The notes: generated by a model from the sequence alone, not told the origin. A stretch of 11,181 nt of DNA from a virus (IMGVR_UViG_3300023196_002342); one strand, 5' to 3'. Positions 56-11,181 are shown, numbered from the stretch's first letter. Translations and numbers: made by a program.

Positions 56-469
56 AGTACCATAACCCTTAGTATACCCCAAGAAGTGAAGGATAAGCTA
101 ACAAAAGAAGCTAATTATAGTGCATTAGTAACTAGATTAGTAAAAGAACACTACTCTAAGGCAGATGACCCTGAGATATTAAAGATTAAAAGGAAACAGC
201 TAGAGGAAGAGATGAAAGAGAAGTTAAAAGATTTTGATTATAAAATTGAGATTGTTGAGAAAGAAAGGGATACGATTGATAAGGTTAAGAAACAGAATAT
301 TAAAAGAGTTAAGGATAAAAGTGAGAGTATTAAAAAGAACTTCAAGGATATAGCAAAACGAGATATAACAGATACAGAGTTAAAAGAGGCTATAAGGAGA
401 ATGAATAACCCAGAAATAGATGACTTTAACATATGGGCATTTGTTGAAGAATTAAATGAAGATTCTTAA
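53..469 (+). CDS. Ribbon-helix-helix (CopG/Arc-like) N-terminal domain followed by a long, highly charged coiled-coil-like region. Likely a DNA-binding regulator, and a speculative small-terminase candidate.
   Basis: 138-aa ORF. The N-terminus ITLSIPQEVKDKLTKEANYSALVTRLVKEHY fits a beta-strand/helix/helix RHH pattern. The remainder is K/E-rich heptad-like sequence. It is the first gene after the control region, and its 3' end overlaps the next gene by 14 nt. Confidence 0.5.
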   Translation: MSTITLSIPQEVKDKLTKEANYSALVTRLVKEHYSKADDPEILKIKRKQLEEEMKEKLKDFDYKIEIVEKERDTIDKVKKQNIKRVKDKSESIKKNFKDIAKRDITDTELKEAIRRMNNPEIDDFNIWAFVEELNEDS

Positions 470-1058
470 TTTGTATGCTGGAATAGGGGGGAATCGTAGA
501 TTATGGGGTAATCAGCATGATATAACAGCTGTTGAAATAAACCCAAAAATAGCTGAAATATATGGGAGCTTCTTTCCAAATGATACCATTATAATAGGAG
601 ACGCTCACCAATATTTATTAGAACACTTTGAGGAGTTTGATTTTATATGGAGTTCACCTCCATGCCCTAGTCATAGCAAGGTTAGAAAAGCAACTCACCA
701 ACAAAATAAACCTATCTTTCCTAACATGGAGCTATATGAAGAGATTTTGTTTTTGAAAGGTTATTTTAAAGGAAAATGGGTTATTGAGAATGTAATCCCT
801 TGGTATGAGCCTTTAATTAAAGGTAAGAAAATAGGAGGGCATTTATATTGGAGTAATTTTATAATAAATGAAATAAAAGGGTATGGAAGTAGAGAGCATG
901 ATTCTAAAGTAGAGGTCTTACAAAAAAGAAAAGGATTTGATTTATCTAAATATGAGGGTATCGATAAAAAATTAATATTAAGAAATTGCGTAGAATCTGA
1001 GTTTGGTTTGCATATTCTTGAATCATCAACCAATAAAATACAAAAAACCTTAATATAA
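456..1058 (+). CDS. Compact DNA (cytosine-5)-methyltransferase-like protein, 200 aa.
   Basis: Motif I LNLYAGIGG (FxGxG type), motif II AVEINP, motif IV SSPPCPSHS (catalytic Pro-Cys), motif VI VIENV, and a C-terminal RNCVESEFGLHIL resembling motif X (GN.V..). The motif order matches the C5-MTase family. Confidence 0.75.
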   Translation: MKILNLYAGIGGNRRLWGNQHDITAVEINPKIAEIYGSFFPNDTIIIGDAHQYLLEHFEEFDFIWSSPPCPSHSKVRKATHQQNKPIFPNMELYEEILFLKGYFKGKWVIENVIPWYEPLIKGKKIGGHLYWSNFIINEIKGYGSREHDSKVEVLQKRKGFDLSKYEGIDKKLILRNCVESEFGLHILESSTNKIQKTLI

Positions 1059-1706: not shown

Positions 1707-1889
1707 ATGATAGAAGATAAGAAATTAAAAATTAAAGTGGGTTCAAAAGAAGAAGCATACTGGTCTGAAGTTGTAGACAATGCTACATCACAGGTTGAAG
1801 ATATGGAAAAAGCCTTGAAATTTCAAAAAGCTGTTTTAGATATGGCTAAAGATAAATTGTTGAAAGGAGGTATTGATAATGATAATTGA
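1707..1889 (+). CDS. Hypothetical helical protein, 60 aa. Start moved to the ATG at 1707.
   Basis: The track ORF 1671-1889 would overlap the previous gene by 35 nt. The in-frame ATG at 1707 sits 1 nt after the upstream stop, with GAGGAA about 10 nt upstream. Confidence 0.5.
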   Translation: MIEDKKLKIKVGSKEEAYWSEVVDNATSQVEDMEKALKFQKAVLDMAKDKLLKGGIDNDN

Positions 1890-2331
1890 AGAAAAAACAG
1901 AAGCTCTAACAAACACTAATAAGCCTATGGTAAAATGGGTAATTAGTGGTAAAAAGTTTAATACCTTTAACGAGGATTATAATAAGTTTAAACTGGGTGA
2001 CTATGTTAAACTAACTACTGAAGTTAATGGAAAATATACCAATATTAAGACTATGGAGTTATCAACCCCAGAAGAAAGCCAAAAAGAAGCTCAAAATGGC
2101 TCTAATACGCTTACAAATGAAGCGGGTGAGATAATTAAAGGTATAATAATTAATAAAACTCAGTCTCCTAACTCCTATGAATTTGGAAAAGCTGGAAATA
2201 GGTTTAAATTATACTTTGAAGATGTTGAAGATTTAAAGCATAAGATAGAAGAATTAATTGCTGAAGGGTTATATTTACCAGATGTTAATGAATCTTTAGA
2301 GATTCAACCTAGTGAATTTGGTAAAGAATAA
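1879..2331 (+). CDS. Hypothetical protein, 150 aa. The N-terminal half is beta-rich and could be a small OB/SH3-like fold. Function unknown.
   Basis: The track starts at TTG 1873. The ATG at 1879 lies 8 nt downstream of a strong AGGAGG (1865-1870). No catalytic motif recognised. Confidence 0.6.
   Translation: MIIEEKTEALTNTNKPMVKWVISGKKFNTFNEDYNKFKLGDYVKLTTEVNGKYTNIKTMELSTPEESQKEAQNGSNTLTNEAGEIIKGIIINKTQSPNSYEFGKAGNRFKLYFEDVEDLKHKIEELIAEGLYLPDVNESLEIQPSEFGKE
2289..2306. terminator. Perfect 7-bp stem with a 4-nt loop, TGAATCT-TTAG-AGATTCA, at the point where the two convergent gene blocks meet. Candidate bidirectional transcription stop or RNA-stability element.
   Basis: Arms verified base by base. 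The hairpin covers the stop codon of the Hjc-like gene (2304-2306) and lies inside the 3' end of the 150-aa plus-strand gene. No flanking U-tract. Confidence 0.3.
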
Positions 2332-2645
2332 ATACATTTAATCTCTTTTTGAGAGGGTGAACCTGTACCTTTACGATAATATATCCACAATTCTGCCCGG
2401 GTTTTGTTTGTCATCGCAAATTGTTTTATCCTCTCAAATTGAGATTTTTCTTTTTTACTAGGATAATATTTTTTTTTAATTGTTTCTTTAACTTCTACTA
2501 ATAAAATTAATCTGCCATCTTTAATAATCATAAAGTCAGCTCCTATCTGGGCAATAGCTATTTTTAAGACAGAGTCTTTGCCGTAAATATTTTCAAGTTC
2601 TTTCTTTGCTTTATATTCACCAACATAACCGCTTCTATATGTCAT
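2304..2645 (-). CDS. hjc: Archaeal-type Holliday junction resolvase (Hjc family, PD-(D/E)xK nuclease).
   Basis: 113 aa. YRSG..GEYKAKKELE (N-terminal Glu), GADFMII (Asp) and LLVEVKET (E-x-K), followed by KKKYY...F....., are collinear with the Hjc pattern (YRKG..AEREL...VDLVA...IEVK...KK..Y) at the same length. Confidence 0.75.
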   Translation of the reverse strand: MTYRSGYVGEYKAKKELENIYGKDSVLKIAIAQIGADFMIIKDGRLILLVEVKETIKKKYYPSKKEKSQFERIKQFAMTNKTRAELWIYYRKGTGSPSQKEIKCIYSLPNSLG

Positions 2646-2761
2646 AGTCCAGATTCTTTAAATTCATTATAACAACCCCAACAAGTGTACCCCTCATCAG
2701 CATTACCATAACCCTCATCATATTCTAGGTCTGGTCTATCTCCGCATTTTCTACATTCCAT
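2642..2761 (-). CDS. Zinc-ribbon miniprotein, 39 aa (MECRKCGDRPDLEYDEGYGNADEGYTCWGCYNEFKESGL).
   Basis: Hand-translated. CxxC...x19...CxxC. The stop overlaps the hjc ATG (ATGA), and its ATG lies 2 nt after the fibre gene stop. Confidence 0.5.
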   Translation of the reverse strand: MECRKCGDRPDLEYDEGYGNADEGYTCWGCYNEFKESGL

Positions 2762-2763
2762 TT

Positions 2764-3987
2764 TTAAGCATTCTCCGCTATAATATGCCAGTTACTCCCA
2801 TCACATATTATAGTTATAAAATTAGTTCCTGAAGATAAACTTTTTGTTGTAGAACCATCTATCGTTTCACTTGAATTACCATCTAGTGTAACAACTCCTC
2901 CTGCCGCACTAATATTTTTTACGGTTAATACTCTTCCTGCTGAACCTGAGGCTGCGGGTAGTGCTATTGTTGTTACTCCCCCCATCATACTTTGTTGATT
3001 TACTAATAAAACACATTCATCAATTGCTACGGTATGGGTAGCATTTCCATTATCTGTAACAGTGTCTTGTTGTAATGCTAAACTTCCCGCTACGTGTAAA
3101 TGGTGTAATGGACTTGTCGTATTTATTCCAACATAGCCATCTTTAGTAATTCTCATTCGTGTAACTAAACTTGTACTTGACGCTGTTTGTAAACTTATTC
3201 TTCCAGGTGTTGCACTACTTGGTGTTGCATCTGCTGTAAATAATATTCTTGCTGAATTTTGGTCTGAACTCCCATCATAACCCAAACCTCTCATTTCCCA
3301 TATTGCATCGCCATGATTTATTGCCGCGGGACTTGCTAAACTTCCTCTATAAGCATAGGCATCTAGTTTAACATGACTTGATGCAGCTCTATAACTTGAC
3401 ATTGTAGTTATACAAGTTGAGCCATCATTTATTATTTGTAAATCTGTTACAGGTGTTGCTGTGTTTATTCCAACTCTACCATTTGCACCATCAACAAAGA
3501 ACGCATTTTCGTTATTGCTACTTTCTACCCTAAAATCTACATCTGAACCCTGTTCGTTAAAAACTGCTTTACCTGTTACATACAATGCTATATCAGAATT
3601 AGCCGTAGTAGTTCCTCCAACAACAACGCTGTCAACTGTTCCACTGGAATCCGTTGGGTGTAATACTGTTCCTGTGTCTGTCCATTCACTACTTCCCCCT
3701 GCTGCTGCCCATTTTATACCTGTTGCTTCTCCACTATCTGCTGTTAAAACTTGGTCATTACTTCCAACGCCTAACCTTGTTATAGTTGAACCATTATTAA
3801 CTATAACATCTCCTTTGGTGGTTGTGGGGTCAGTTAATAAAGAACCTGCTTCCGTTTTCAAAGCTCCCTCTTTTATTGCTGAAACATTAGGAAGATATAA
3901 CTCAGAATTATCAGTTTTTGCTGGTTGTCCAAAACCCATCAATTTCTTTATTGGGTCTGCTTTTCTTCCGCTACCTTGTCCGCCCAT
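2764..3987 (-). CDS. Tail fibre / receptor-binding protein-like, 407 aa, rich in G/S/T/A/N.
   Basis: The N-proximal GDVIVNNGSTITRLGVGSNDQVLTADSGEATGIKWAAAGG block is typical of phage fibre shaft/anchor regions. The rest has long beta-type low-charge composition and a C-terminal ...TLDGNSSETIDGS....ITIICDGSNWHII module. AGGAGGG lies 8 nt upstream of the ATG. The gene sits distal to the head genes. Confidence 0.6.
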   Translation of the reverse strand: MGGQGSGRKADPIKKLMGFGQPAKTDNSELYLPNVSAIKEGALKTEAGSLLTDPTTTKGDVIVNNGSTITRLGVGSNDQVLTADSGEATGIKWAAAGGSSEWTDTGTVLHPTDSSGTVDSVVVGGTTTANSDIALYVTGKAVFNEQGSDVDFRVESSNNENAFFVDGANGRVGINTATPVTDLQIINDGSTCITTMSSYRAASSHVKLDAYAYRGSLASPAAINHGDAIWEMRGLGYDGSSDQNSARILFTADATPSSATPGRISLQTASSTSLVTRMRITKDGYVGINTTSPLHHLHVAGSLALQQDTVTDNGNATHTVAIDECVLLVNQQSMMGGVTTIALPAASGSAGRVLTVKNISAAGGVVTLDGNSSETIDGSTTKSLSSGTNFITIICDGSNWHIIAENA

Positions 3988-4140: not shown

Positions 4141-4323
4141 TTATTTCTTTTCTTTTGGTTTAGAAGTTTCAGAAGTAGATTTCTCATCTTTAGGATTAGG
4201 TTTAGCTACTGGGTCTGGTGTATCTGGATATTTTGCTTCTAAGTCTGCAACAGCCTTTAAATTATTAGTTTCTAGAAAATGAGCTTTTAACCTAGTTAAT
4301 GTTTCTTTAGTCATTTTAAGCAT
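4141..4323 (-). CDS. Hypothetical small protein with a helical N-terminus and a disordered Pro/Lys-rich tail. The alternative start at 4314 gives 57 aa.
   Basis: 60-aa ORF overlapping the capsid gene stop by 8 nt. Its position just after the capsid gene suggests a head completion or accessory role. No motif recognised. Confidence 0.45.
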   Translation of the reverse strand: MLKMTKETLTRLKAHFLETNNLKAVADLEAKYPDTPDPVAKPNPKDEKSTSETSKPKEKK

Positions 4324-5179
4324 CTGTGTTAGTAATCAAACATACAGCACGAGGGTCTGTAAGCAATGTTATTCCTAATTCATAAACCCTAAATTTAGTA
4401 CCTATACCTCTATCTTCAATAGCTACGCTAGTTGTATTAGTGTGACTCTTCCATGTTGCTGCCGCTGCTGGTATTAAAACTGGTGCTGAATCTGCTACAA
4501 CATTATTAGAGACTCTTACCTTTAATCCTAAAAACTCCATTAAAACTCCATTCTTTACCTTTTCACTTGCAAACTGTGGGATACTTGCTCCTTTAGTAGA
4601 AATAAGCCATGTTAAAAGACTTGTCTTTTGTTTTGGATTTAACCATAATTCACCTTGTGAAATATCATAATTATAATCTTCTATATCTTCGATAGCTCCT
4701 AGTATGTCTTTTATTGGGTCTTGTCCGCTTCCCGCATCCCATGCAGCAGTACTTGCAACTGTGCTTATTGTTGATGGACTTTGATTTTCTGTAATTACAT
4801 TGTAAATATCTGTATCTACTTGTTTTACTACTGCCCTTGTTAATCTTAATAGTGTTCTTGCTACTACATCAATATCGCTGCTTTTCATGTCTTCCATAGA
4901 AATAGTATCCTCAGCTGCATATTTTTGAACATAACTTGTATTTCTTGTCCATGTTGCTTCTAAAGTTGGGAATAATGATAATGGTGAAACATCACTAATA
5001 ACTGTTGGAGCTGTTGGAGTTAAATCCGCTGCGGTTTCCTGGTACCATCTTATATGGTCAGCTGTTGTTGTGCTATTAGTAATAGCCGATTTAAAAATAT
5101 AATTAACTAATGCAAAACCTTTAACTGTCTTATCTATATCCAGTCCTCTAATATCAGCCATTTCAACACTATCTGCCAT
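4316..5179 (-). CDS. Major capsid protein, HK97-fold family, with no delta domain.
   Basis: 287 aa. Blocks KYAAEDTISMEDMKSSDIDVVARTLLRLTRAVVKQVDTDIYN, DPIKDILGAIEDIEDYNYD...LWLNPKQKTSL and EFLGLKVRVSNNV match conserved HK97-type capsid signatures. GGAGGT lies 7 nt upstream. Follows the scaffold and decoration genes. Confidence 0.8.
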   Translation of the reverse strand: MADSVEMADIRGLDIDKTVKGFALVNYIFKSAITNSTTTADHIRWYQETAADLTPTAPTVISDVSPLSLFPTLEATWTRNTSYVQKYAAEDTISMEDMKSSDIDVVARTLLRLTRAVVKQVDTDIYNVITENQSPSTISTVASTAAWDAGSGQDPIKDILGAIEDIEDYNYDISQGELWLNPKQKTSLLTWLISTKGASIPQFASEKVKNGVLMEFLGLKVRVSNNVVADSAPVLIPAAAATWKSHTNTTSVAIEDRGIGTKFRVYELGITLLTDPRAVCLITNTDA

Positions 5180-5574
5180 TATGAACCTCCTACTAGAACT
5201 TCAATAACTTCTGCTGCTGATGCTGTTTCTAGTGCAATACCTACACCCTTACCCGCTGCCAATTCTGCTTCTGTTGCTGTTTTAATTGTATTAGTTCCGC
5301 CAGTGCTTACCCATGCTCCTGCTGTAATTCCTGCACCTGAATCCGTTAAATCAAAAATACCTCTTCTAAATAATGCTAATTGTGTTCTCCCGTCACTTGC
5401 TACTTTTTCCCTTGCTGCTATTCCTGCGAATACATCACCACTTCCATTATTCGCAGCTGCTGTTCTTGGGTCTGTTAGTTCGCAAATAGTTCCTTTTTCA
5501 ATACCTGCACCATCTGCCACTGTGAAATTCATTGGGTCATCAATTCGTAATTTTAAAACTGCTTCGTTAGCCAT
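5179..5574 (-). CDS. DUF2190-like head decoration / capsid cement protein.
   Basis: 131 aa, Gly/Ala-rich. GDVFAGIAAREKVASDGRTQLALFRRGIFDL...GKGVGIALETASAAEVIEVLV resembles the DUF2190 pattern. Sits immediately upstream of the capsid gene with a TAATG overlap. Confidence 0.6.
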   Translation of the reverse strand: MANEAVLKLRIDDPMNFTVADGAGIEKGTICELTDPRTAAANNGSGDVFAGIAAREKVASDGRTQLALFRRGIFDLTDSGAGITAGAWVSTGGTNTIKTATEAELAAGKGVGIALETASAAEVIEVLVGGS

Positions 5575-5594: not shown

Positions 5595-5602
5595 TATATA
5601 AA
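5595..5602 (-). promoter_or_regulatory. TTTATATA (minus strand) in the 43-bp gap upstream of the decoration and capsid genes. Candidate internal TATA-type promoter element.
   Basis: The 8-mer ends 20 nt upstream of the ATG at 5574. It lies in one of the few non-overlapping junctions in the late block. Specificity is weak in an AT-rich genome. Confidence 0.2.
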
Positions 5603-5617
5603 TCTTTCGTTAATTTA

Positions 5618-5918: not shown

Positions 5919-7079
5919 TTATATAGTTTCTCTTAAAATACCCTTTTCTATTTTTTTTCTTCTTCTTTTCCCCTGTATTGCTTCCATTTCTCCAATTAAA
6001 AAAGCTATTTGTGTTGGGTCAAATTGTTGGGTTTGTTCCAATACATCTGCCCTTGCTTCTCGTATTGTGCTTCTTTGGTCTTGAATATCTGCTAAAACAT
6101 CATAATACTGCCCACTTCTTTTAACAGCTGGGTCTAAAATAGAAGCTTGTTGAAGTTGGTACTCAACTATTTCTAAATCTTTATCTAATTGGTTTAGTTC
6201 TGCTAAAGCTTTTGGTGTGGTTATTCCTCCTGCTGCATGAGTACCCATTAAGGTAGAACCCATTTGTCCAACTGTATTAACTGAGGACTGGATTTCATTA
6301 ACTTTTTTCCTATCTAAGAGTCTATCTGTAAGAGTGCTAGGGCTTATATCTCCTAAAAATGCAGAAGTTCCCACGACTCCTAAAGTGGTTGTTCCAATAC
6401 TTGTTCCTATTTTAGTTGAAATAAAAGCCATTGTTGAGGCAATAACTGGAGCCAGTGCTGCTATTAATGCCGTCCCTGAAACTGTTGCGATAGTTACTCC
6501 TAACGCCTTTCCAAAATCTGTTTCTGCCATATCAGCCGCGGTTTTATTACTTAATTCCTTTCCTGTTAATTTTTCTATACCCTCTCCTATCATAACAGAC
6601 GGAGTTAAACCTATTTCTGCAATCTTTTCAATAGCCCTTTCTTGTCTACCCTCTAATTCTTGGAATCCTCCCTCTGATTCAAATTGTTTCTCAATGGATG
6701 TCGGTTCTAATTGTGCCTCTGCCTGTTCTGCTGCCCCTATAACTCCTCGCCCTAATCTTTCAGTTCCTAACCTAGAGCCAACTTCCCTTGCACCCTCTGG
6801 AGTTTTTAATTTCTTAGTTTCTCTTTGAATTATCTCTTCTGCTTCTTCTGGACTTAAACCCATGAAAATTCTTCCGTCTGGTAATTCTACCCCTGAAACT
6901 TTTCTTGTTTTTACATCTCTAAAAACTTCTGGAGTTCCTTTAGTTGCTGGAAATTCTGGACTAGGTTGTATAGCTTGATTTCCTTGAGCATCTATTTCAA
7001 CTATATCTGTTTTATTTTCTTCAGATTTCTTCTTTTTCTTCCTGCCTCCTAAGAATGAAGCTGGGACTTGTGCTACCAT
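5919..7079 (-). CDS. Internal virion / ejection or tape-measure-like protein with a Gly/Ala/Thr-rich hydrophobic core and basic termini.
   Basis: 386 aa. N-terminal GGRKKKKKSEE, C-terminal GKRRRKKIEKG. The central stretch ALGVTIATVSGTALIAALAPVIASTMAFISTKIGTSIGTTTLGVVGTSAFLG looks like membrane-spanning glycine-zipper segments. Helical flanks. Confidence 0.45.
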   Translation of the reverse strand: MVAQVPASFLGGRKKKKKSEENKTDIVEIDAQGNQAIQPSPEFPATKGTPEVFRDVKTRKVSGVELPDGRIFMGLSPEEAEEIIQRETKKLKTPEGAREVGSRLGTERLGRGVIGAAEQAEAQLEPTSIEKQFESEGGFQELEGRQERAIEKIAEIGLTPSVMIGEGIEKLTGKELSNKTAADMAETDFGKALGVTIATVSGTALIAALAPVIASTMAFISTKIGTSIGTTTLGVVGTSAFLGDISPSTLTDRLLDRKKVNEIQSSVNTVGQMGSTLMGTHAAGGITTPKALAELNQLDKDLEIVEYQLQQASILDPAVKRSGQYYDVLADIQDQRSTIREARADVLEQTQQFDPTQIAFLIGEMEAIQGKRRRKKIEKGILRETI

Positions 7080-7273
7080 AGTTTCTTATATCTCCCTTTA
7101 TATTTAAAAAATTCTAAAAATGCTCCTAATATAATCATAAATACACCTCTAATAAATAAATTATTGCTACTTGTTGCATTTGTCATAAATATAACTCCTG
7201 TGGAAGTCATGGCTAAAGCTGCCGTATTAATTAAAGTTTCAATAATTGGTTTATGTCCGTTTCTTTTATTCAT
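7073..7273 (-). CDS. Small two-TM membrane protein (holin-like topology).
   Basis: 66 aa. Two hydrophobic stretches (IIETLINTAALAMTSTGVIFM and LFIRGVFMIILGAFLEFF) and a basic C-terminus KYKGRYKKLW. Overlaps both neighbouring genes by 7-8 nt. Confidence 0.45.
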   Translation of the reverse strand: MNKRNGHKPIIETLINTAALAMTSTGVIFMTNATSSNNLFIRGVFMIILGAFLEFFKYKGRYKKLW

Positions 7274-8351
7274 TTTCAGTTAAAGACGCTTGAACCTCAT
7301 TTTCTTGAAATCCTATTTGTCCTGTGTTCTTTTTCTCATCTGTTTGGACGTTATCCATAAGGCTAGGAGGTCTATTAAATTTAATTTTTAAAGCTGTTTG
7401 ATTTAATAAATCAGTTTCTAAATCTGTTTGTTCCCTTGTGTAAATTGGCTCAAATGTCAAATAACCAACCTTAGAGGCTGCTTCTGTAAAATTCTCACTA
7501 GTTGCAATAACTCTAGGCACTCCTACCGCTTGATAAAAGAAATTCTCTAAATATTGTATCCATGCTATTCGGTCTTGTGGTTTAACTCCACTATCTTTCA
7601 ATTCAGCTGTATCTTTAGGTAAAACTAAAACTTCTCCGTTCTTAACGGCATCTTGATACTGTGTCATAATCTTATTTCTTTTAGTTACGTTATCTGAATC
7701 AATATATAGTATGCCTAAAGCTAGTTCTCTATGTTTAATCAACCTTTCATCCTTTAGGGCTTCATTTCTTGCATCTATAACCCATTTACAAGATTCAATT
7801 ACAGAAGTTCCATGTATTTCGTTGGCTATCCTATCGTTTACTAAATGAAGTATTTGGTGAGGTCTAAAAACCTTATTAACGCCATTTTTAACATTGTTTC
7901 TCTGTTCATACCTTATAATCATACCTTGCCCGTTAACTACAACCCGCATATCACCTGTATAAAGAGGCTTTATGTTGATTAAATTGTTATTTTCATCCCT
8001 TATAATCTCAGCGTAAGCATCCCCAAAGACTTTCTTTTGAACTTGTAAATTCCAAAATATAGACTGGCTTGAGTCTTCACCCCATCCTATAAAAGAACCT
8101 AATACCAATGTAATTGGTTGAGAAGCTGTCCAACCTTTGCCCGTTGTCCAAGTTGCTAAACTATCAATAGCTTTCTTTAGTTCTGGAATAGTCTTATAAT
8201 AACCTAGATATTCATTACTATTAGGATAATCGTAATAAGTTTCTTTTTGTTGTTGTGTTGGTTGGTCTGGTTGTTGAGCATTAACAGAAAAGTCTTTAAC
8301 TGTGCCGCTTAAATCGGTTGTTGCTGATGAGTTTGCATTTAGTTCTGCCAT
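7266..8351 (-). CDS. Portal protein (HK97/Phage_portal-like).
   Basis: 361 aa. VFGDAYAEIIRDENNNLINIKPLYTGDMRVV...IIRYEQ...FRPHQILHLVNDRIANEIHGTSVIES and the later YQAVGVPRVI...FEPIY blocks follow the portal family pattern. Located in the head module near the terminase. Confidence 0.75.
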   Translation of the reverse strand: MAELNANSSATTDLSGTVKDFSVNAQQPDQPTQQQKETYYDYPNSNEYLGYYKTIPELKKAIDSLATWTTGKGWTASQPITLVLGSFIGWGEDSSQSIFWNLQVQKKVFGDAYAEIIRDENNNLINIKPLYTGDMRVVVNGQGMIIRYEQRNNVKNGVNKVFRPHQILHLVNDRIANEIHGTSVIESCKWVIDARNEALKDERLIKHRELALGILYIDSDNVTKRNKIMTQYQDAVKNGEVLVLPKDTAELKDSGVKPQDRIAWIQYLENFFYQAVGVPRVIATSENFTEAASKVGYLTFEPIYTREQTDLETDLLNQTALKIKFNRPPSLMDNVQTDEKKNTGQIGFQENEVQASLTENE

Positions 8352-9352: not shown

Positions 9353-10672
9353 TTATATTCTAATGGAGCTTAACCATACATTTAAGTTTTTCTCTTTTAC
9401 TATCCATGCCGCTCTTATTAATCCCTCAACAATATGGCTAAAATTCCCAAAGATTTTAACTTGATTAGATTCATCTTTGGTAAATTCATATTGTATACTC
9501 CTTAAAGACGCCCTTATATTATCATCATCCAGTAATCTGATTTGATTCTTTTCCATAAGCATTAGCAAATTATCATAAAGGTCTTCTTTCAATAATCTTG
9601 ATTTGCTTTTGAATCTATCCAGTGGTCTTGCCCTATTATTAATAGCAACAACTTTCCTTTTAGTTTGTTCATTATCTAGTAAATGGTCAAATATCCCAAC
9701 CCCTAAAGAGCCAGAACCTGCATCTAAATAGATATGTTGGAAATCATATAGCTTATCTAGGTTTAATATTTGTCTTTCGGTTTGAGTTGTTAAGGTCTTC
9801 CTTGTTACTACCGATTCAACATGAATTAAATGGTTGTTTTCCATTCTTCTTAATATCTCAAAAGTGCTGTCATCATCCCCCATTCTTGCAATATCTACGC
9901 CTAAACTATAAACTTGGTCTTTCTTAATGGTGTTAGGTCTTTCTAATGTACAAATCCTATTTATCAACTCATCACTAAAGTATCTCCTTAAATCATCTAT
10001 AAACAATCCTAAATATTCTTGAGAGTATCTTAACTCACTCATATCTTCCCTTTCTTCTTCTAGTATCTTAATACTTGCCTCTTTTCTTTCCTTAGTCCAA
10101 CCCTCACTAACTGGTCTATTTTTAATAACCTCTTCACTTGATATATGAAATACCTTAAACCTATTATTCTTGTTTATGAAGCATTCATAGAAATAACCCG
10201 TCTTTCCGTGTGGGGTGCTACACATCCATATCTTCCCACCTGTTGTTAATAGTGTTGGTTTGGCTGCAATCCACATAAGCTCTGGCATTCTGGACGCTTC
10301 ATCAACTATCAATATGTCACCTGTAAAACCCCTTACACTATCACCCGTATTCCCAACTGGTCTCGCTATAACCTTACTTCCATTAGTTAAGGTAATCGTA
10401 CTCTTAGTTGGCTTCTTCTTTCCTTTGTGTATTTTCCTTTTGTCCGTTCTCTCTAAGAAGTCTAAAATCATAATAATGATAAGTTGTGCTTGGTCTTCAG
10501 TTAGGGACACTACAATGATGTTAGTGTTAGGGTGTTCTATCATATATTTACCTGCTTTATGTGATAGGGTCATAGTTTTGCCTACTTGTCTACCAGTGCA
10601 TAGTAATACATTGCCGTCTTCTTCTATTATATCCTTTTGCCAGTCATCTAATACTATGGCTTTTTTTTCCAT
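9353..10672 (-). CDS. terL: Terminase large subunit (ATPase plus RNase H-like nuclease).
   Basis: 439 aa. Walker A CTGRQVGKT, Walker B GDILIVDEAS, coupling motif MCSTPHG, and nuclease-domain acidic residues in LGVDIARMGDDDSTFEI and IYLDAGSGSLG. Confidence 0.9.
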   Translation of the reverse strand: MEKKAIVLDDWQKDIIEEDGNVLLCTGRQVGKTMTLSHKAGKYMIEHPNTNIIVVSLTEDQAQLIIIMILDFLERTDKRKIHKGKKKPTKSTITLTNGSKVIARPVGNTGDSVRGFTGDILIVDEASRMPELMWIAAKPTLLTTGGKIWMCSTPHGKTGYFYECFINKNNRFKVFHISSEEVIKNRPVSEGWTKERKEASIKILEEEREDMSELRYSQEYLGLFIDDLRRYFSDELINRICTLERPNTIKKDQVYSLGVDIARMGDDDSTFEILRRMENNHLIHVESVVTRKTLTTQTERQILNLDKLYDFQHIYLDAGSGSLGVGIFDHLLDNEQTKRKVVAINNRARPLDRFKSKSRLLKEDLYDNLLMLMEKNQIRLLDDDNIRASLRSIQYEFTKDESNQVKIFGNFSHIVEGLIRAAWIVKEKNLNVWLSSIRI

Positions 10673-10742
10673 TTTTTAAAATAATTAAAAAAAATAAGAT
10701 GAGGTAGTATATATTTTTTTATATTTTAAAAAATTAAAAAAT

Positions 10743-10767
10743 ATTTCTGGGGGGATAGCCCAGGAAT
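10743..10767. repeat. Inverted repeat ATTTCTGGG / CCCAGGAAT forming a 9-bp stem (one G:T) with a 7-nt loop, at the edge of the GC-rich island and about 70-95 nt upstream of the terL ATG.
   Basis: Manual pairing of 10743-10751 with 10759-10767. Confidence 0.45.
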
Positions 10768-10801
10768 GCGAGAAATACCCCTAATCGTCGCTTACTGTCC
10801 G

Positions 10802-10841
10802 CAGGAACTTTTAAGCGTTGATAGGAAGTTATAAGCGTTTA
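10802..10841. repeat. Tandem 20-bp direct repeat (iteron-like): CAGGAACTTTTAAGCGTTGA / TAGGAAGTTATAAGCGTTTA, 16/20 identical. A degenerate third copy, GAACTTTTCACGCTT, lies at 10955-10969.
   Basis: Aligned by hand. The shared core is AGGAA-TT-TAAGCGTT with a 20-bp (two-turn) periodicity. ACGCTTAA at 10964-10971 is the inverse of TTAAGCGT. Confidence 0.55.
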
Positions 10842-10872
10842 ATACGCCCTTTAAATACTTTTTAAGCTCCCT

Positions 10873-10902
10873 AAGTCCTTATATTTAGGTAGTTAAGGAC
10901 TT
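10873..10902. repeat. Perfect 9-bp inverted repeat AAGTCCTTA / TAAGGACTT separated by 12 nt.
   Basis: Manual pairing of 10873-10881 with 10894-10902. Lies inside the ORF-free control region. Confidence 0.5.
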
Positions 10903-11126
10903 CTACTCAAATCATAGAATTAATAATTGAAAGTACATATAACGTACATTGTGCGAACTTTTCACGCTTAAACTAATGGATTTAGGCACTACTTTTTATT
11001 AAGAGACATCTATTTTAAGAACTGTAGTGGTTAAAATGCTGTATGCATTTTAAAAGCTTTTAATTTATATAAGATTATTGGCGATTTAATAAAAAGTATT
11101 CGACTATATGCAAACATTAATATACT

Positions 11127-11181
11127 TACTTAATTAATTATAATTAATTAATTAATAAATATAATAATAAGAGATAATATG
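11127..11181. repeat. Right copy of the exact 55-bp direct terminal repeat (identical to 1-55). It includes the ATG of the first plus-strand gene.
   Basis: Identical to 1-55. The unique genome length is therefore 11,126 bp. Confidence 0.9.

What the first reader, a model, noticed from the sequence alone, without database searches (positions are those of the whole stretch)
2304..2761. Archaeal-type Hjc resolvase and zinc-ribbon miniprotein at the end of the late operon: a hint of an archaeal host
The 113-aa protein is collinear with archaeal Hjc, sharing YR.G, the N-terminal Glu, the GADF Asp, the EVK motif and the KK..Y segment. Bacterial phages more commonly use RuvC-, RusA-, endonuclease VII- or RecU-type resolvases. 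Multiple RHH regulators, CxxC miniproteins and the absence of any peptidoglycan hydrolase are also typical of archaeal viruses. Standard-code TGA stops argue against a Mollicute host. An AT-rich archaeon, such as a methanogen or a DPANN-type organism, is a plausible host. If correct, this would be far smaller than the archaeal tailed viruses I know of.
Basis: partly seen in the sequence, partly recalled or inferred. Interest (0 to 1): 0.65.

Follow-up and report, generated by a model that had tools for sequence, protein, structure and literature searches.

The report
Hjc-like resolvase, tiny probable archaeal virus
A complete 11.1-kb tailed-virus genome carries a small DNA-junction-cutting enzyme of the archaeal Hjc type, and its closest relatives and the virus's own promoter signals indicate an archaeal host, which would make this the smallest archaeal tailed virus group described.

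Summary
ORF 2304-2645(-) encodes a 113-aa PD-(D/E)xK nuclease of the Hjc type. A 99-sequence family profile hits only archaeal Hjc/Hje in the PDB (P. furiosus Hjc E 2.7e-6). The AlphaFold model's best PDB matches are all Hjc. The catalytic E10/D37/E51/K53 are conserved. It is divergent: alone it misses the Pfam and NCBIfam Hjc cut-offs.

An Hjc-like fold is not host-diagnostic, because distant members occur in bacteriophages. Three new results nevertheless support an archaeal host:
- Homologues 45-52% identical lie in archaeal chromosomes, next to L37ae, prefoldin, Pcc1, NurA and aEF-1alpha/aEF-2.
- A 60%-identical copy lies beside a TFB-like gene in a 58.8-kb virus.
- Across this ~11-12.5-kb virus family the cement/capsid genes are preceded by RAAAG-TTTAAATA about 21 nt before an SD-less ATG. 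That is an archaeal BRE/TATA promoter with a leaderless mRNA.

Against this, some relatives are binned into CPR-bacterial MAGs, and one relative carries RusA.

The 39-aa zinc ribbon belongs to a swappable fibre cassette, not to Hjc. The host lineage is unresolved, and a DPANN host is only a guess. The resolvase probably debranches replicated DNA before packaging.

The parts
2304..2645 (-). Hjc-like PD-(D/E)xK nuclease, 113 aa. Putative Holliday-junction/branched-DNA resolvase with catalytic E10, D37, E51, K53.
2642..2761 (-). 39-aa CxxC...CxxC miniprotein. Its stop overlaps the Hjc start (ATGA), so Hjc translation is probably coupled to it. It belongs to the distal fibre cassette, not to Hjc.
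   Evidence: Conserved only in near-identical genomes. Absent from L029, where window 2645-3695 is replaced. Sequence.
2764..3987 (-). Tail-fibre-like protein, 407 aa. Its C-terminal ~300 residues form a swappable cassette.
   Evidence: PHROG tail fibre families, E 6.8e-11. Cassette swap.
1873..2331 (+). Last early-strand gene, 152 aa, unknown function. It is convergent with Hjc, and the two 3' ends overlap by 28 nt.
   Evidence: Conserved in 9 relatives. The pair is inverted in L007.
5595..5609 (-). Archaeal-type promoter: BRE-like CGAAAGA followed by TATA box TTTATATA, 20 nt upstream of the SD-less ATG of the cement gene.
   Evidence: The same element is found in 17 of 21 relatives.
4316..5574 (-). 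Cement/decoration protein (5179-5574) and HK97-type major capsid protein (4316-5179).
   Evidence: Pfam Phage_cement_2 4.2e-7 and Phage_capsid_4 1.3e-11. PHROG major head protein 5.9e-25.
7266..8351 (-). Portal protein.
   Evidence: Pfam Phage_portal 1.3e-12. PHROG 12, E 1.1e-18.
9353..10672 (-). Large terminase subunit, first gene of the structural strand.
   Evidence: Pfam Terminase_6N 2.5e-12. PHROG 2, E 8.4e-41.
10734..10762 (-). Conserved non-coding element GGGCTATCCCCCCAGAAATATTTTTTAA upstream of TerL. Candidate late promoter or pac/ori site.
   Evidence: One copy per genome in at least 12 relatives. Sequence.
11127..11181 (.). Exact repeat of bases 1-55. This is an assembly overlap, showing a circular or circularly permuted genome of 11,126 bp.
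   Evidence: Relatives have 47-127-nt overlaps, and L029 has different ends.

Best explanation
The window is the complete ~11.1-kb genome of a very small tailed (HK97/portal/TerL) virus whose host is most probably an AT-rich archaeon.

ORF 2304-2645 encodes a divergent Hjc-type nuclease. By analogy with Hjc it would act as a homodimer, bind four-way or branched DNA, and nick two opposed strands with a Mg2+ site built from E10, D37, E51 and K53.

In this genome it is made late. It is the last cistron of the structural strand and is translationally coupled (ATGA) to the preceding miniprotein. The genome encodes no recognisable polymerase and is circular or permuted, so replication presumably yields branched concatemers. 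The resolvase would debranch these so that the terminase can fill heads, as T7 endonuclease I, T4 endonuclease VII and rudivirus Hjr do.

The gene is an accessory cassette shared with archaeal chromosomes and other archaeal viruses. Relatives lack it or carry RusA instead.

Shown: gene, family, fold, conserved catalytic residues, genomic contexts, promoter motif. Inferred: dimer, junction cleavage, role in packaging, host domain.
For: Hjc type:
- A profile of 99 family members hits only Hjc/Hje in the PDB (1gef 2.7e-6, 4tkd 1e-4, 2eo0 6e-4).
- 43 of 99 members hit Pfam Hjc.
- The PHROG families hit are named Holliday junction resolvase.
- The AF2 model has pLDDT 85.8, and its top Foldseek PDB hits are all Hjc.
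- E10, D37, E51 and K53 are near-invariant and align to Pfu E9, D33, E46 and K48.

Archaeal link:
- P0274, P0264 and P0262 are 45-52% identical (BLASTP E 4e-25). They sit among L37ae, prefoldin, Pcc1, NurA, SepF, aEF-2, aEF-1alpha and S7 on contigs up to 80.8 kb, with GC 0.34-0.36, similar to the window.
- The 60%-identical copy in L008 lies about 1 kb from a TFB-core gene (PDB Pyrococcus TFB 7e-6; NCBIfam TFIIB 3.4e-13).

Promoters:
- RAAAG followed after 0-3 nt by a TATA box (TTTAAATA or a near variant), with 20-27 nt between the box and the ATG of the cement gene, occurs in 17 of 21 genomes.
- Family-wide, TATA-like 8-mers peak at -32..-29 (53 hits against ~8 per bin). The enrichment of 5.2x exceeds that of the SIRV2 control at 3.4x.
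- Genes with this TATA lack an SD: 3 of 33 have one, against 58 of 153 without the TATA (p 9e-4).
- Sigma-70-like sites and intrinsic terminators are not enriched.
- No peptidoglycan hydrolase was detected in the 24 family genomes and contigs compared.

Packaging context:
- The assemblies are circular or permuted.
- RusA in relative L059 points to the same functional need.
Against: - The window protein alone fails the Pfam Hjc cut-off (15.9 vs 21.1 bits) and gives no hit to the NCBIfam Hjc equivalog. The cellular 100-aa homologues also miss it. The family may therefore be a paralogous Hjc-like nuclease rather than the cell's main resolvase.
- Foldseek TM-scores are only ~0.5.
- There is no biochemical evidence.
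- Host: of six close TerL relatives in GTDB genomes, three are binned in Levyibacteriota or Saccharibacteria, one in Actinomycetota, one in an unclassified bacterium and one in Methanomicrobia.
- Relatives carry RusA and phage-type Dam, which are commoner in bacterial gene pools.
- Distant family members occur in a bacteriophage that has an amidase.
- No CRISPR spacer or provirus link was obtained.
- The negative promoter control was small (58 genes, 4 hits).
- No archaea-specific gene is present in the window itself.
Confidence: 0.68

Rival explanations
1. This is a bacteriophage of ultrasmall CPR/Patescibacteria that captured an archaeal Hjc-like gene from archaea in the same habitat. The enzyme works the same way but the host is bacterial.
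For: - TerL relatives at 44-61% identity lie on contigs binned into Levyibacteriota and Saccharibacteria MAGs. One has the NCBI name Candidatus Levybacteria.
- Relatives carry RusA and phage Dam.
- The Hjc gene is restricted to one subclade, as expected for a recent acquisition.
- Detection in 0.1-um size fractions fits CPR hosts as well as DPANN hosts.
Against: - All binned contigs are short, stand-alone viral contigs with no host genes, so the evidence is binning only. One is binned to Methanomicrobia.
- The Levyibacteriota-binned contig L010 has the same BRE/TATA-type promoter before its cement gene.
- The conserved element sits where a sigma-70 -35 box could not give a transcript that includes the ATG. 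No conserved -10 follows it.
- No peptidoglycan hydrolase is found in the 24 genomes and contigs compared, although CPR bacteria have murein.
- Sigma-70-like sites are fewer than in shuffles.
Confidence: 0.22
2. The 113-aa protein is a PD-(D/E)xK nuclease with a different job. It might degrade host or competitor DNA, act as an anti-defence or homing nuclease, or be a selfish passenger gene. It would not be a junction resolvase serving packaging.
For: - The PD-(D/E)xK fold is functionally promiscuous. Weak hits to NERD, TnsA-like and restriction-fold families appear among members.
- Most relatives of the virus do without the gene.
- Its position and strand vary.
- Curated Hjc thresholds are not met.
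Against: - Every significant PDB sequence hit and the best fold hits are Hjc/Hje resolvases.
- Full-length collinearity with Hjc includes the N-terminal RKG..E segment.
- The PHROG families hit by the most members are named resolvases.
- A relative carries RusA, a non-homologous resolvase, which suggests the function is the one selected.
- Housekeeping-like chromosomal copies exist in archaea.
Confidence: 0.1

Closest known systems
Archaeal Hjc/Hje Holliday junction resolvases (P. furiosus 1GEF, S. solfataricus 1HH1/4TKD/1OB8, A. fulgidus 2WCW, S. tokodaii 2EO0)
   Same: - Small alpha/beta PD-(D/E)xK protein with the same order of elements.
- N-terminal RKG..E, then D, then E-x-K catalytic residues.
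- Best sequence-profile and fold matches.
   Different: - Shorter: 100-113 aa against 120-145 aa.
- 15-20% identity.
- Below the Pfam and NCBIfam curated cut-offs for the single sequence.
- Forms its own subfamily of about 106 clusters at 50% identity.
- Dimerisation and junction cleavage are untested.
Resolvases of archaeal viruses (rudivirus SIRV2 Hjr ORF121, SSRV1; haloarchaeal tailed viruses HHTV-1, HGTV-1)
   Same: Virus-encoded Hjc-type enzymes thought to process replication intermediates. SSRV1 is the top BFVD match at E 6.9e-5, and HHTV-1 and HGTV-1 resolvases are also listed.
   Different: Those viruses have 32-144-kb genomes and their own replication genes. Here the genome is 11.1 kb with no recognisable replication protein, and the gene is accessory within the family.
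Bacteriophage debranching nucleases (T7 endonuclease I, T4 endonuclease VII, RusA, RecU, phage RuvC)
   Same: Proposed role: clearing branches from concatemers before or during terminase packaging. RusA occupies this role in relative L059. RecU (1rzn) is a weak fold match at E 0.022.
   Different: These are different families or folds. The resemblance is functional analogy from established phage biology, not membership.
Smallest known tailed viruses (Salmonella phage astrithr 11.6 kb, satellite P4) and small archaeal tailed viruses (verdandivirus VerdaV2 19.5 kb)
   Same: HK97 capsid, portal and TerL module in a minimal genome. At 11.1 kb the genome falls in the 5-11.6-kb 'twilight zone' described from metagenomes (bioRxiv 10.1101/2025.06.18.659913).
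   Different: If the host is archaeal, the genome is roughly half the size of the smallest archaeal tailed virus genome I found mentioned. No protease or tail-tube genes were recognised.

Membership tests
Hjc family (Pfam PF01870 / NCBIfam NF040854) | Catalytic E ... D ... E-x-K tetrad in Hjc order | tested here: met
   E10, D37, E51 and K53 are near-invariant in 99 sequences. They align to Pfu Hjc E9, D33, E46 and K48. That these Pfu residues are catalytic is from my own knowledge of the Hjc literature.
Hjc family (Pfam PF01870 / NCBIfam NF040854) | Single sequence reaches the curated model cut-offs | tested here: not met
   Pfam Hjc 15.9 bits against 21.1 (E 0.013). No NCBIfam NF040854 hit; relatives score 13.6-16 bits against a cut-off of 70.
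Hjc family (Pfam PF01870 / NCBIfam NF040854) | Significant profile-level homology to experimentally characterised Hjc | tested here: met
   Profile A3 against the PDB gives 1gef 2.7e-6, 4tkd 1e-4 and 2eo0 6.2e-4, and the top seven hits are all Hjc/Hje. 43 of 99 members hit Pfam Hjc, best 4.2e-7.
Hjc family (Pfam PF01870 / NCBIfam NF040854) | Hjc-like three-dimensional fold | tested here: met
   AF2 pLDDT 85.8. Apart from SSO0001 (4ic1, ranks 7, 17, 20) and a DinG chain (9kqh, rank 19), the 26 best Foldseek PDB hits are Hjc/Hje chains (E 5e-4 to 1e-2, probability ~1.0). TM-scores are only 0.45-0.59.
Hjc family (Pfam PF01870 / NCBIfam NF040854) | Homodimer that makes paired nicks in four-way junctions | not testable with these tools
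   Needs purified protein and synthetic junctions.
Archaeal virus | Archaeal BRE/TATA promoters at the correct distance from transcript starts | tested here: met
   RAAAG-TTTAAATA lies 20-27 nt before SD-less ATGs in 17 of 21 cement genes. Family-wide there is a positional peak, and TATA and SD are mutually exclusive. Transcription start sites were not mapped.
Archaeal virus | CRISPR spacer match or provirus in an archaeal genome | not tested
   No spacer database is available. The single GTDB scan found only stand-alone contigs.
Archaeal virus | Genes with closest relatives in archaeal genomes or viruses | tested here: met
   Met for the Hjc-like gene only.
Caudoviricetes (Duplodnaviria) | HK97-fold capsid protein, portal, large terminase | tested here: met
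Caudoviricetes (Duplodnaviria) | Capsid maturation protease and tail proteins | tested here: inconclusive
   No protease, tube or nozzle domain was detected by Pfam or PHROGs. Only a fibre-like protein was found. Four conserved proteins (118, 211, 386 and 96 aa) remain unassigned.

The most novel reading that the evidence does not exclude
The window represents a globally distributed, very diverse family of autonomous tailed viruses of archaea with genomes of only ~11-12.5 kb. More than 1,700 TerL variants were found, from groundwater, sediments and the ocean. The hosts are possibly ultrasmall DPANN-type cells. [quoted passage not shown] The family runs on leaderless archaeal promoters, lacks any lysin, and has been mis-binned into CPR-bacterial MAGs.
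Probability: 0.55. Interest if true: 0.78.

Novelty: new variant of a known kind. Interest (0 to 1): 0.66.

Why it matters
The enzyme itself is an ordinary kind: a divergent Hjc-type resolvase.

What matters is the host inference it points to. If the host is archaeal, this family would:
- halve the lower size limit for archaeal tailed viruses;
- show how little is needed for a tailed virion in Archaea;
- add an abundant, overlooked virus group for uncultured AT-rich, possibly ultrasmall, archaea;
- warn that short AT-rich viral contigs binned into CPR MAGs can mislead host assignment.

The conserved BRE/TATA-plus-leaderless signature is also a cheap, sequence-only criterion for telling archaeal from bacterial viruses in metagenomes.

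Tried and rejected
- Single-sequence searches of the 113-aa protein were uninformative: PDB phmmer, PHROGs and tblastn against 50,697 phage records. The narrow 21-sequence profile gave Pfu Hjc only at E 0.69.
- TerL and capsid searches against isolated phages gave only ~22-26% identity, to a mix of Thermus, Meiothermus, Arthrobacter and Bacillus phages and halovirus HGTV-1. This gives no host signal.
- I first leaned towards a CPR-bacterial host, based on MAG binning and the Levybacteria name. I rejected this as the leading explanation after the archaeal chromosomal contexts and promoter analysis.
- I could not name the archaeal lineage of contigs L109-L112 and L119. Cluster look-ups returned no names and Rfam found nothing.
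- Promoter controls on single 20-kb contigs were too small to use.
- The zinc ribbon as a functional partner of Hjc is rejected.
- Rfam and tRNA scans of the window found nothing.
- Literature searches found no description of this family. The DPANN virus paper of Wu, Liu and Ni (2024) is not held.

Full report
**What the window is.** Bases 1-55 are repeated exactly at 11127-11181. Related contigs have k-mer-sized terminal overlaps of 47-127 nt. A 93-95%-identical contig (L029) is broken at a different point. The window is therefore a complete circular or circularly permuted genome of 11,126 bp. It is 93.6% coding, has GC around 0.34, and uses TAA, TGA and TAG stops 13, 5 and 3 times.

The minus strand carries a structural block, in this order:
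- TerL (9353-10672)
- a 118-aa protein and a 211-aa protein
- portal (7266-8351)
- a 66-aa two-TM protein
- a 386-aa protein
- a 96-aa scaffold-like protein
- a cement protein (5179-5574)
- an HK97-type capsid protein (4316-5179)
- two small ORFs
- a fibre-like protein (2764-3987)
- the 39-aa CxxC ORF (2642-2761)
- the 113-aa ORF (2304-2645)

The plus strand carries small early genes, including RHH-like proteins and a 200-aa N-terminal half of a C5-methyltransferase. No polymerase, integrase, protease or lysin domain was detected.

**The observation.** The 113-aa ORF is a real, conserved gene. Twenty homologues at 55-99% identity were found, nearly all on contigs of 13 kb or less. They share invariant E51-V52-K53 and near-invariant G6, Y7, E10 and D37.

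Alone, the protein is only sub-threshold for Hjc. It scores 15.9 bits against Pfam Hjc (cut-off 21.1), gives no PDB phmmer hit, and gives no hit to the NCBIfam Hjc equivalog. An exhaustive profile search found 106 clusters of relatives.

A 99-sequence alignment of these relatives changes the picture.
- It hits P. furiosus Hjc at E 2.7e-6, aligned from the N-terminal M-RKG..E through D and E-V-K. It then hits S. solfataricus Hjc (1e-4), S. tokodaii ST1444 (6e-4), Hje and A. fulgidus Hjc. Nothing else is significant.
- 43 of the 99 members hit Pfam Hjc, best E 4.2e-7.
- The PHROG families hit by the most members are named Holliday junction resolvase.
- The AlphaFold model (pLDDT 85.8) has the alpha-beta-beta-beta-alpha-beta-beta order of Hjc. 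Its best PDB matches are Hjc chains (E about 5e-4, TM 0.47-0.59), and RecU appears only at E 0.022.

The protein belongs to a divergent Hjc-like subfamily.

**The zinc ribbon.** The 39-aa ORF has two CxxC pairs, and its stop overlaps the Hjc start (ATGA). It is conserved only in near-identical genomes. In L029, window 2645-3695 (the fibre C-terminus plus the zinc ribbon) is replaced by unrelated fibre sequence that abuts the Hjc start directly. The miniprotein therefore travels with the receptor-binding cassette, not with the resolvase.

**The virus family.**
- TerL has more than 1,729 homologues at E<=1e-20, and the best 120 lie on contigs that top out around 11-13 kb.
- A metagenome scan returned 276 relatives, with apparently complete genomes of 11.3-12.5 kb.
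- Gene order is conserved: TerL, 118 aa, 211 aa, portal, 386 aa, scaffold, (c7), cement, capsid, fibre. The remainder is variable.
- The Hjc-like gene occurs only in the window's subclade. In L005 and L007 it is on the opposite strand from the structural genes.
- Relative L059 instead carries RusA (E 4.8e-10). Other relatives carry phage Dam, CcdA-like RHH proteins, LamG lectin domains and HNH.
- No peptidoglycan hydrolase domain was found among 116 accessory proteins (>=75 aa, up to two per cluster) from the 24 genomes and near-complete contigs compared.

**Host: evidence pointing to bacteria.** In GTDB genomes, close TerL relatives (44-61% identity) lie on short stand-alone contigs. These are binned to Levyibacteriota, Saccharibacteria (two contigs), Actinomycetota, an unclassified bacterium and one Methanomicrobia MAG. 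One carries the NCBI name Candidatus Levybacteria. RusA and Dam are typical of bacterial gene pools. A distant family member (28% identity) sits in a phage contig with Amidase_3 and SLT. Bacteriophage proteins also appear among the structural matches. An Hjc-like fold alone therefore does not indicate an archaeal host.

**Host: evidence pointing to archaea.** There are three lines of evidence.

First, the closest non-viral homologues are archaeal chromosomal genes.
- They form a tight group of 100-aa proteins, 45-52% identical to the window protein over its full length (BLASTP E 4e-25).
- P0274 and P0264 lie on 54.6-80.8-kb contigs. Their neighbours include NurA, HAD hydrolases, RNase H and MetRS, and L37ae, Pcc1, prefoldin, SepF, UPF0147 and AlaRS lie within 10 kb on the P0274 contigs. 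GC is 0.34-0.36.
- P0262 lies next to aEF-2, aEF-1alpha, S7 and an IF-2B-type isomerase.
- L37ae, Pcc1, prefoldin and aEF-1alpha are archaeal or eukaryotic markers (established knowledge).

Second, the 60%-identical copy in a 58.8-kb viral contig (L008) lies about 1 kb from a 195-aa TFB-core homologue. That protein matches Pyrococcus TFB in the PDB at E 7e-6 over both cyclin repeats, and NCBIfam TFIIB at E 3.4e-13. A TFB-like factor makes sense only for an archaeal transcription system.

Third, and independently of Hjc, the family's promoters look archaeal.
- In 17 of 21 genomes the cement gene is preceded by RAAAG, 0-3 nt, then a TATA box (TTTAAATA or a near variant). Another 20-27 nt follow before an ATG with no Shine-Dalgarno. 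In the window this is CGAAAGA-TTTATATA at 5609-5595, 20 nt before the ATG at 5574.
- This matches the archaeal BRE/TATA arrangement, with the TATA box centred about 26-27 nt before the start site. It implies a leaderless mRNA (established knowledge of archaeal promoters).
- A sigma-70 -35 box at that position could not produce a transcript containing the ATG. No conserved -10 follows it.
- Across all family ORFs, TATA-like 8-mers peak sharply at -32..-29 (53 hits against ~8 per 4-nt bin).
- The enrichment is 5.2-fold. The archaeal virus SIRV2 gives 3.4-fold, and three AT-rich bacteriophage sequences give 2.3-fold from only four hits.
- Core genes with this TATA have an SD-like 4-mer in 3 of 33 cases, against 58 of 153 without it (Fisher p 9e-4).
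- The contig binned to Levyibacteriota has the same promoter, which suggests the CPR assignments are binning artefacts.
- Sigma-70-like sites (33 against 45.3+-6.7 in shuffles) and intrinsic terminators (4 against 6.1) are not enriched.

**Conclusion on host and mechanism.** I put the probability of an archaeal host at about 0.7-0.75. The host lineage is unresolved, because look-ups returned no names and Rfam found nothing. Recovery from 0.1-um groundwater and 0.1-0.22-um Tara fractions is compatible with ultrasmall DPANN-type cells, but that is a guess.

The genome lacks replication genes and is circular or permuted, so the most likely role of the nuclease is to resolve Holliday junctions and other branches in replicated or recombined concatemers before or during terminase packaging. 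In this genome it is expressed late by translational coupling. The dimeric state, junction specificity and packaging role are inferred from Hjc and from phage debranching nucleases. They are not shown here.

**Novelty.** The enzyme is a new, divergent member of a known family. The smallest isolated tailed phage genome is 11.6 kb, and small HK97 genomes of 5-11.6 kb have been catalogued from metagenomes without host assignment (bioRxiv 10.1101/2025.06.18.659913). Complete CPR and DPANN viral genomes reported from groundwater are 36-55 kb (PMC11310336). I found no description of this family, although my literature access was incomplete. An 11-kb archaeal tailed virus family would be a notable extension of a known kind.

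Noticed in passing
window 10734-10762 (minus strand); also L034, L038, L044, L045, L049, L056, L059, L097, L100, L101, L013, L060: A ~28-nt element with consensus G-N-(T)TATCCCC-N-CAGAAA-Y-TTTTT-AA occurs once per genome upstream of TerL. It is more conserved than the coding sequence among relatives whose TerL is only 52-66% identical. It could be a late promoter (AGAAA BRE-like plus a T-rich TATA) or a pac/ori site.
   Followed up: partly
window 2645-3695 vs L029 2228-3408: The distal ~300 codons of the fibre gene plus the 39-aa zinc-ribbon ORF are swapped for unrelated sequence in a strain that is otherwise 93-95% identical. This is a receptor-binding cassette exchange. A second replaced block lies in the early region (window ~1325-1695).
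   Followed up: partly
window 1873-2645 vs L007 375-1348: The convergent pair of the 152-aa gene and the Hjc-like gene is inverted relative to the structural genes in L007. In L005 the Hjc-like gene follows the methyltransferase on the early strand. The gene sits at a recombination-prone module boundary.
   Followed up: no
L008 11341-11928 (minus strand), 58.8-kb viral contig IMGVR_UViG_3300021507_000132: A 195-aa protein consists of the two cyclin repeats of archaeal TFB without the N-terminal zinc ribbon. It is encoded about 1 kb from the Hjc-like gene, in a virus that also has an RNA ligase, three DNA methyltransferases and a metallo-beta-lactamase-MTase fusion.
   Followed up: partly
L059 2102-2479 (minus strand); L071 2922-3311; L097 1205-1585: Family members carry RusA (E 4.8e-10) or phage-type Dam methyltransferase (E 1e-16) instead of the Hjc-like gene and the C5-MTase-like gene. 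These are non-orthologous replacements in the accessory region.
   Followed up: partly
window 456-1058 (+): A 200-aa protein matches only positions 1-83 of the 324-position C5 cytosine methylase model, with motif I and a PPCP motif. It lacks the rest of the enzyme, yet it is conserved in four relatives.
   Followed up: no
window 7073-7273 (minus strand) and the whole family: A 66-aa protein with two hydrophobic segments lies between the portal gene and the 386-aa gene. No lysin domain was detected in the 24 genomes and contigs compared, so the egress mechanism is unknown.
   Followed up: no
L109/L110 ~10001-10303, L111/L112, L119 10001-10303: The 100-aa Hjc-like gene occupies at least two different chromosomal neighbourhoods in uncultured AT-rich archaea: NurA-HAD-Hjc-RNase H, and aEF-2-Hjc-S7. 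It is not recognised by the NCBIfam Hjc model, and one copy is mis-named eRF1 in IMG.
   Followed up: partly
window 10745-11000: The non-coding region upstream of TerL is locally richer in G+C than the rest of the genome and contains short repeats (AAGCGTT ... AAGCGTT). There is no Rfam match and no tRNA.
   Followed up: partly
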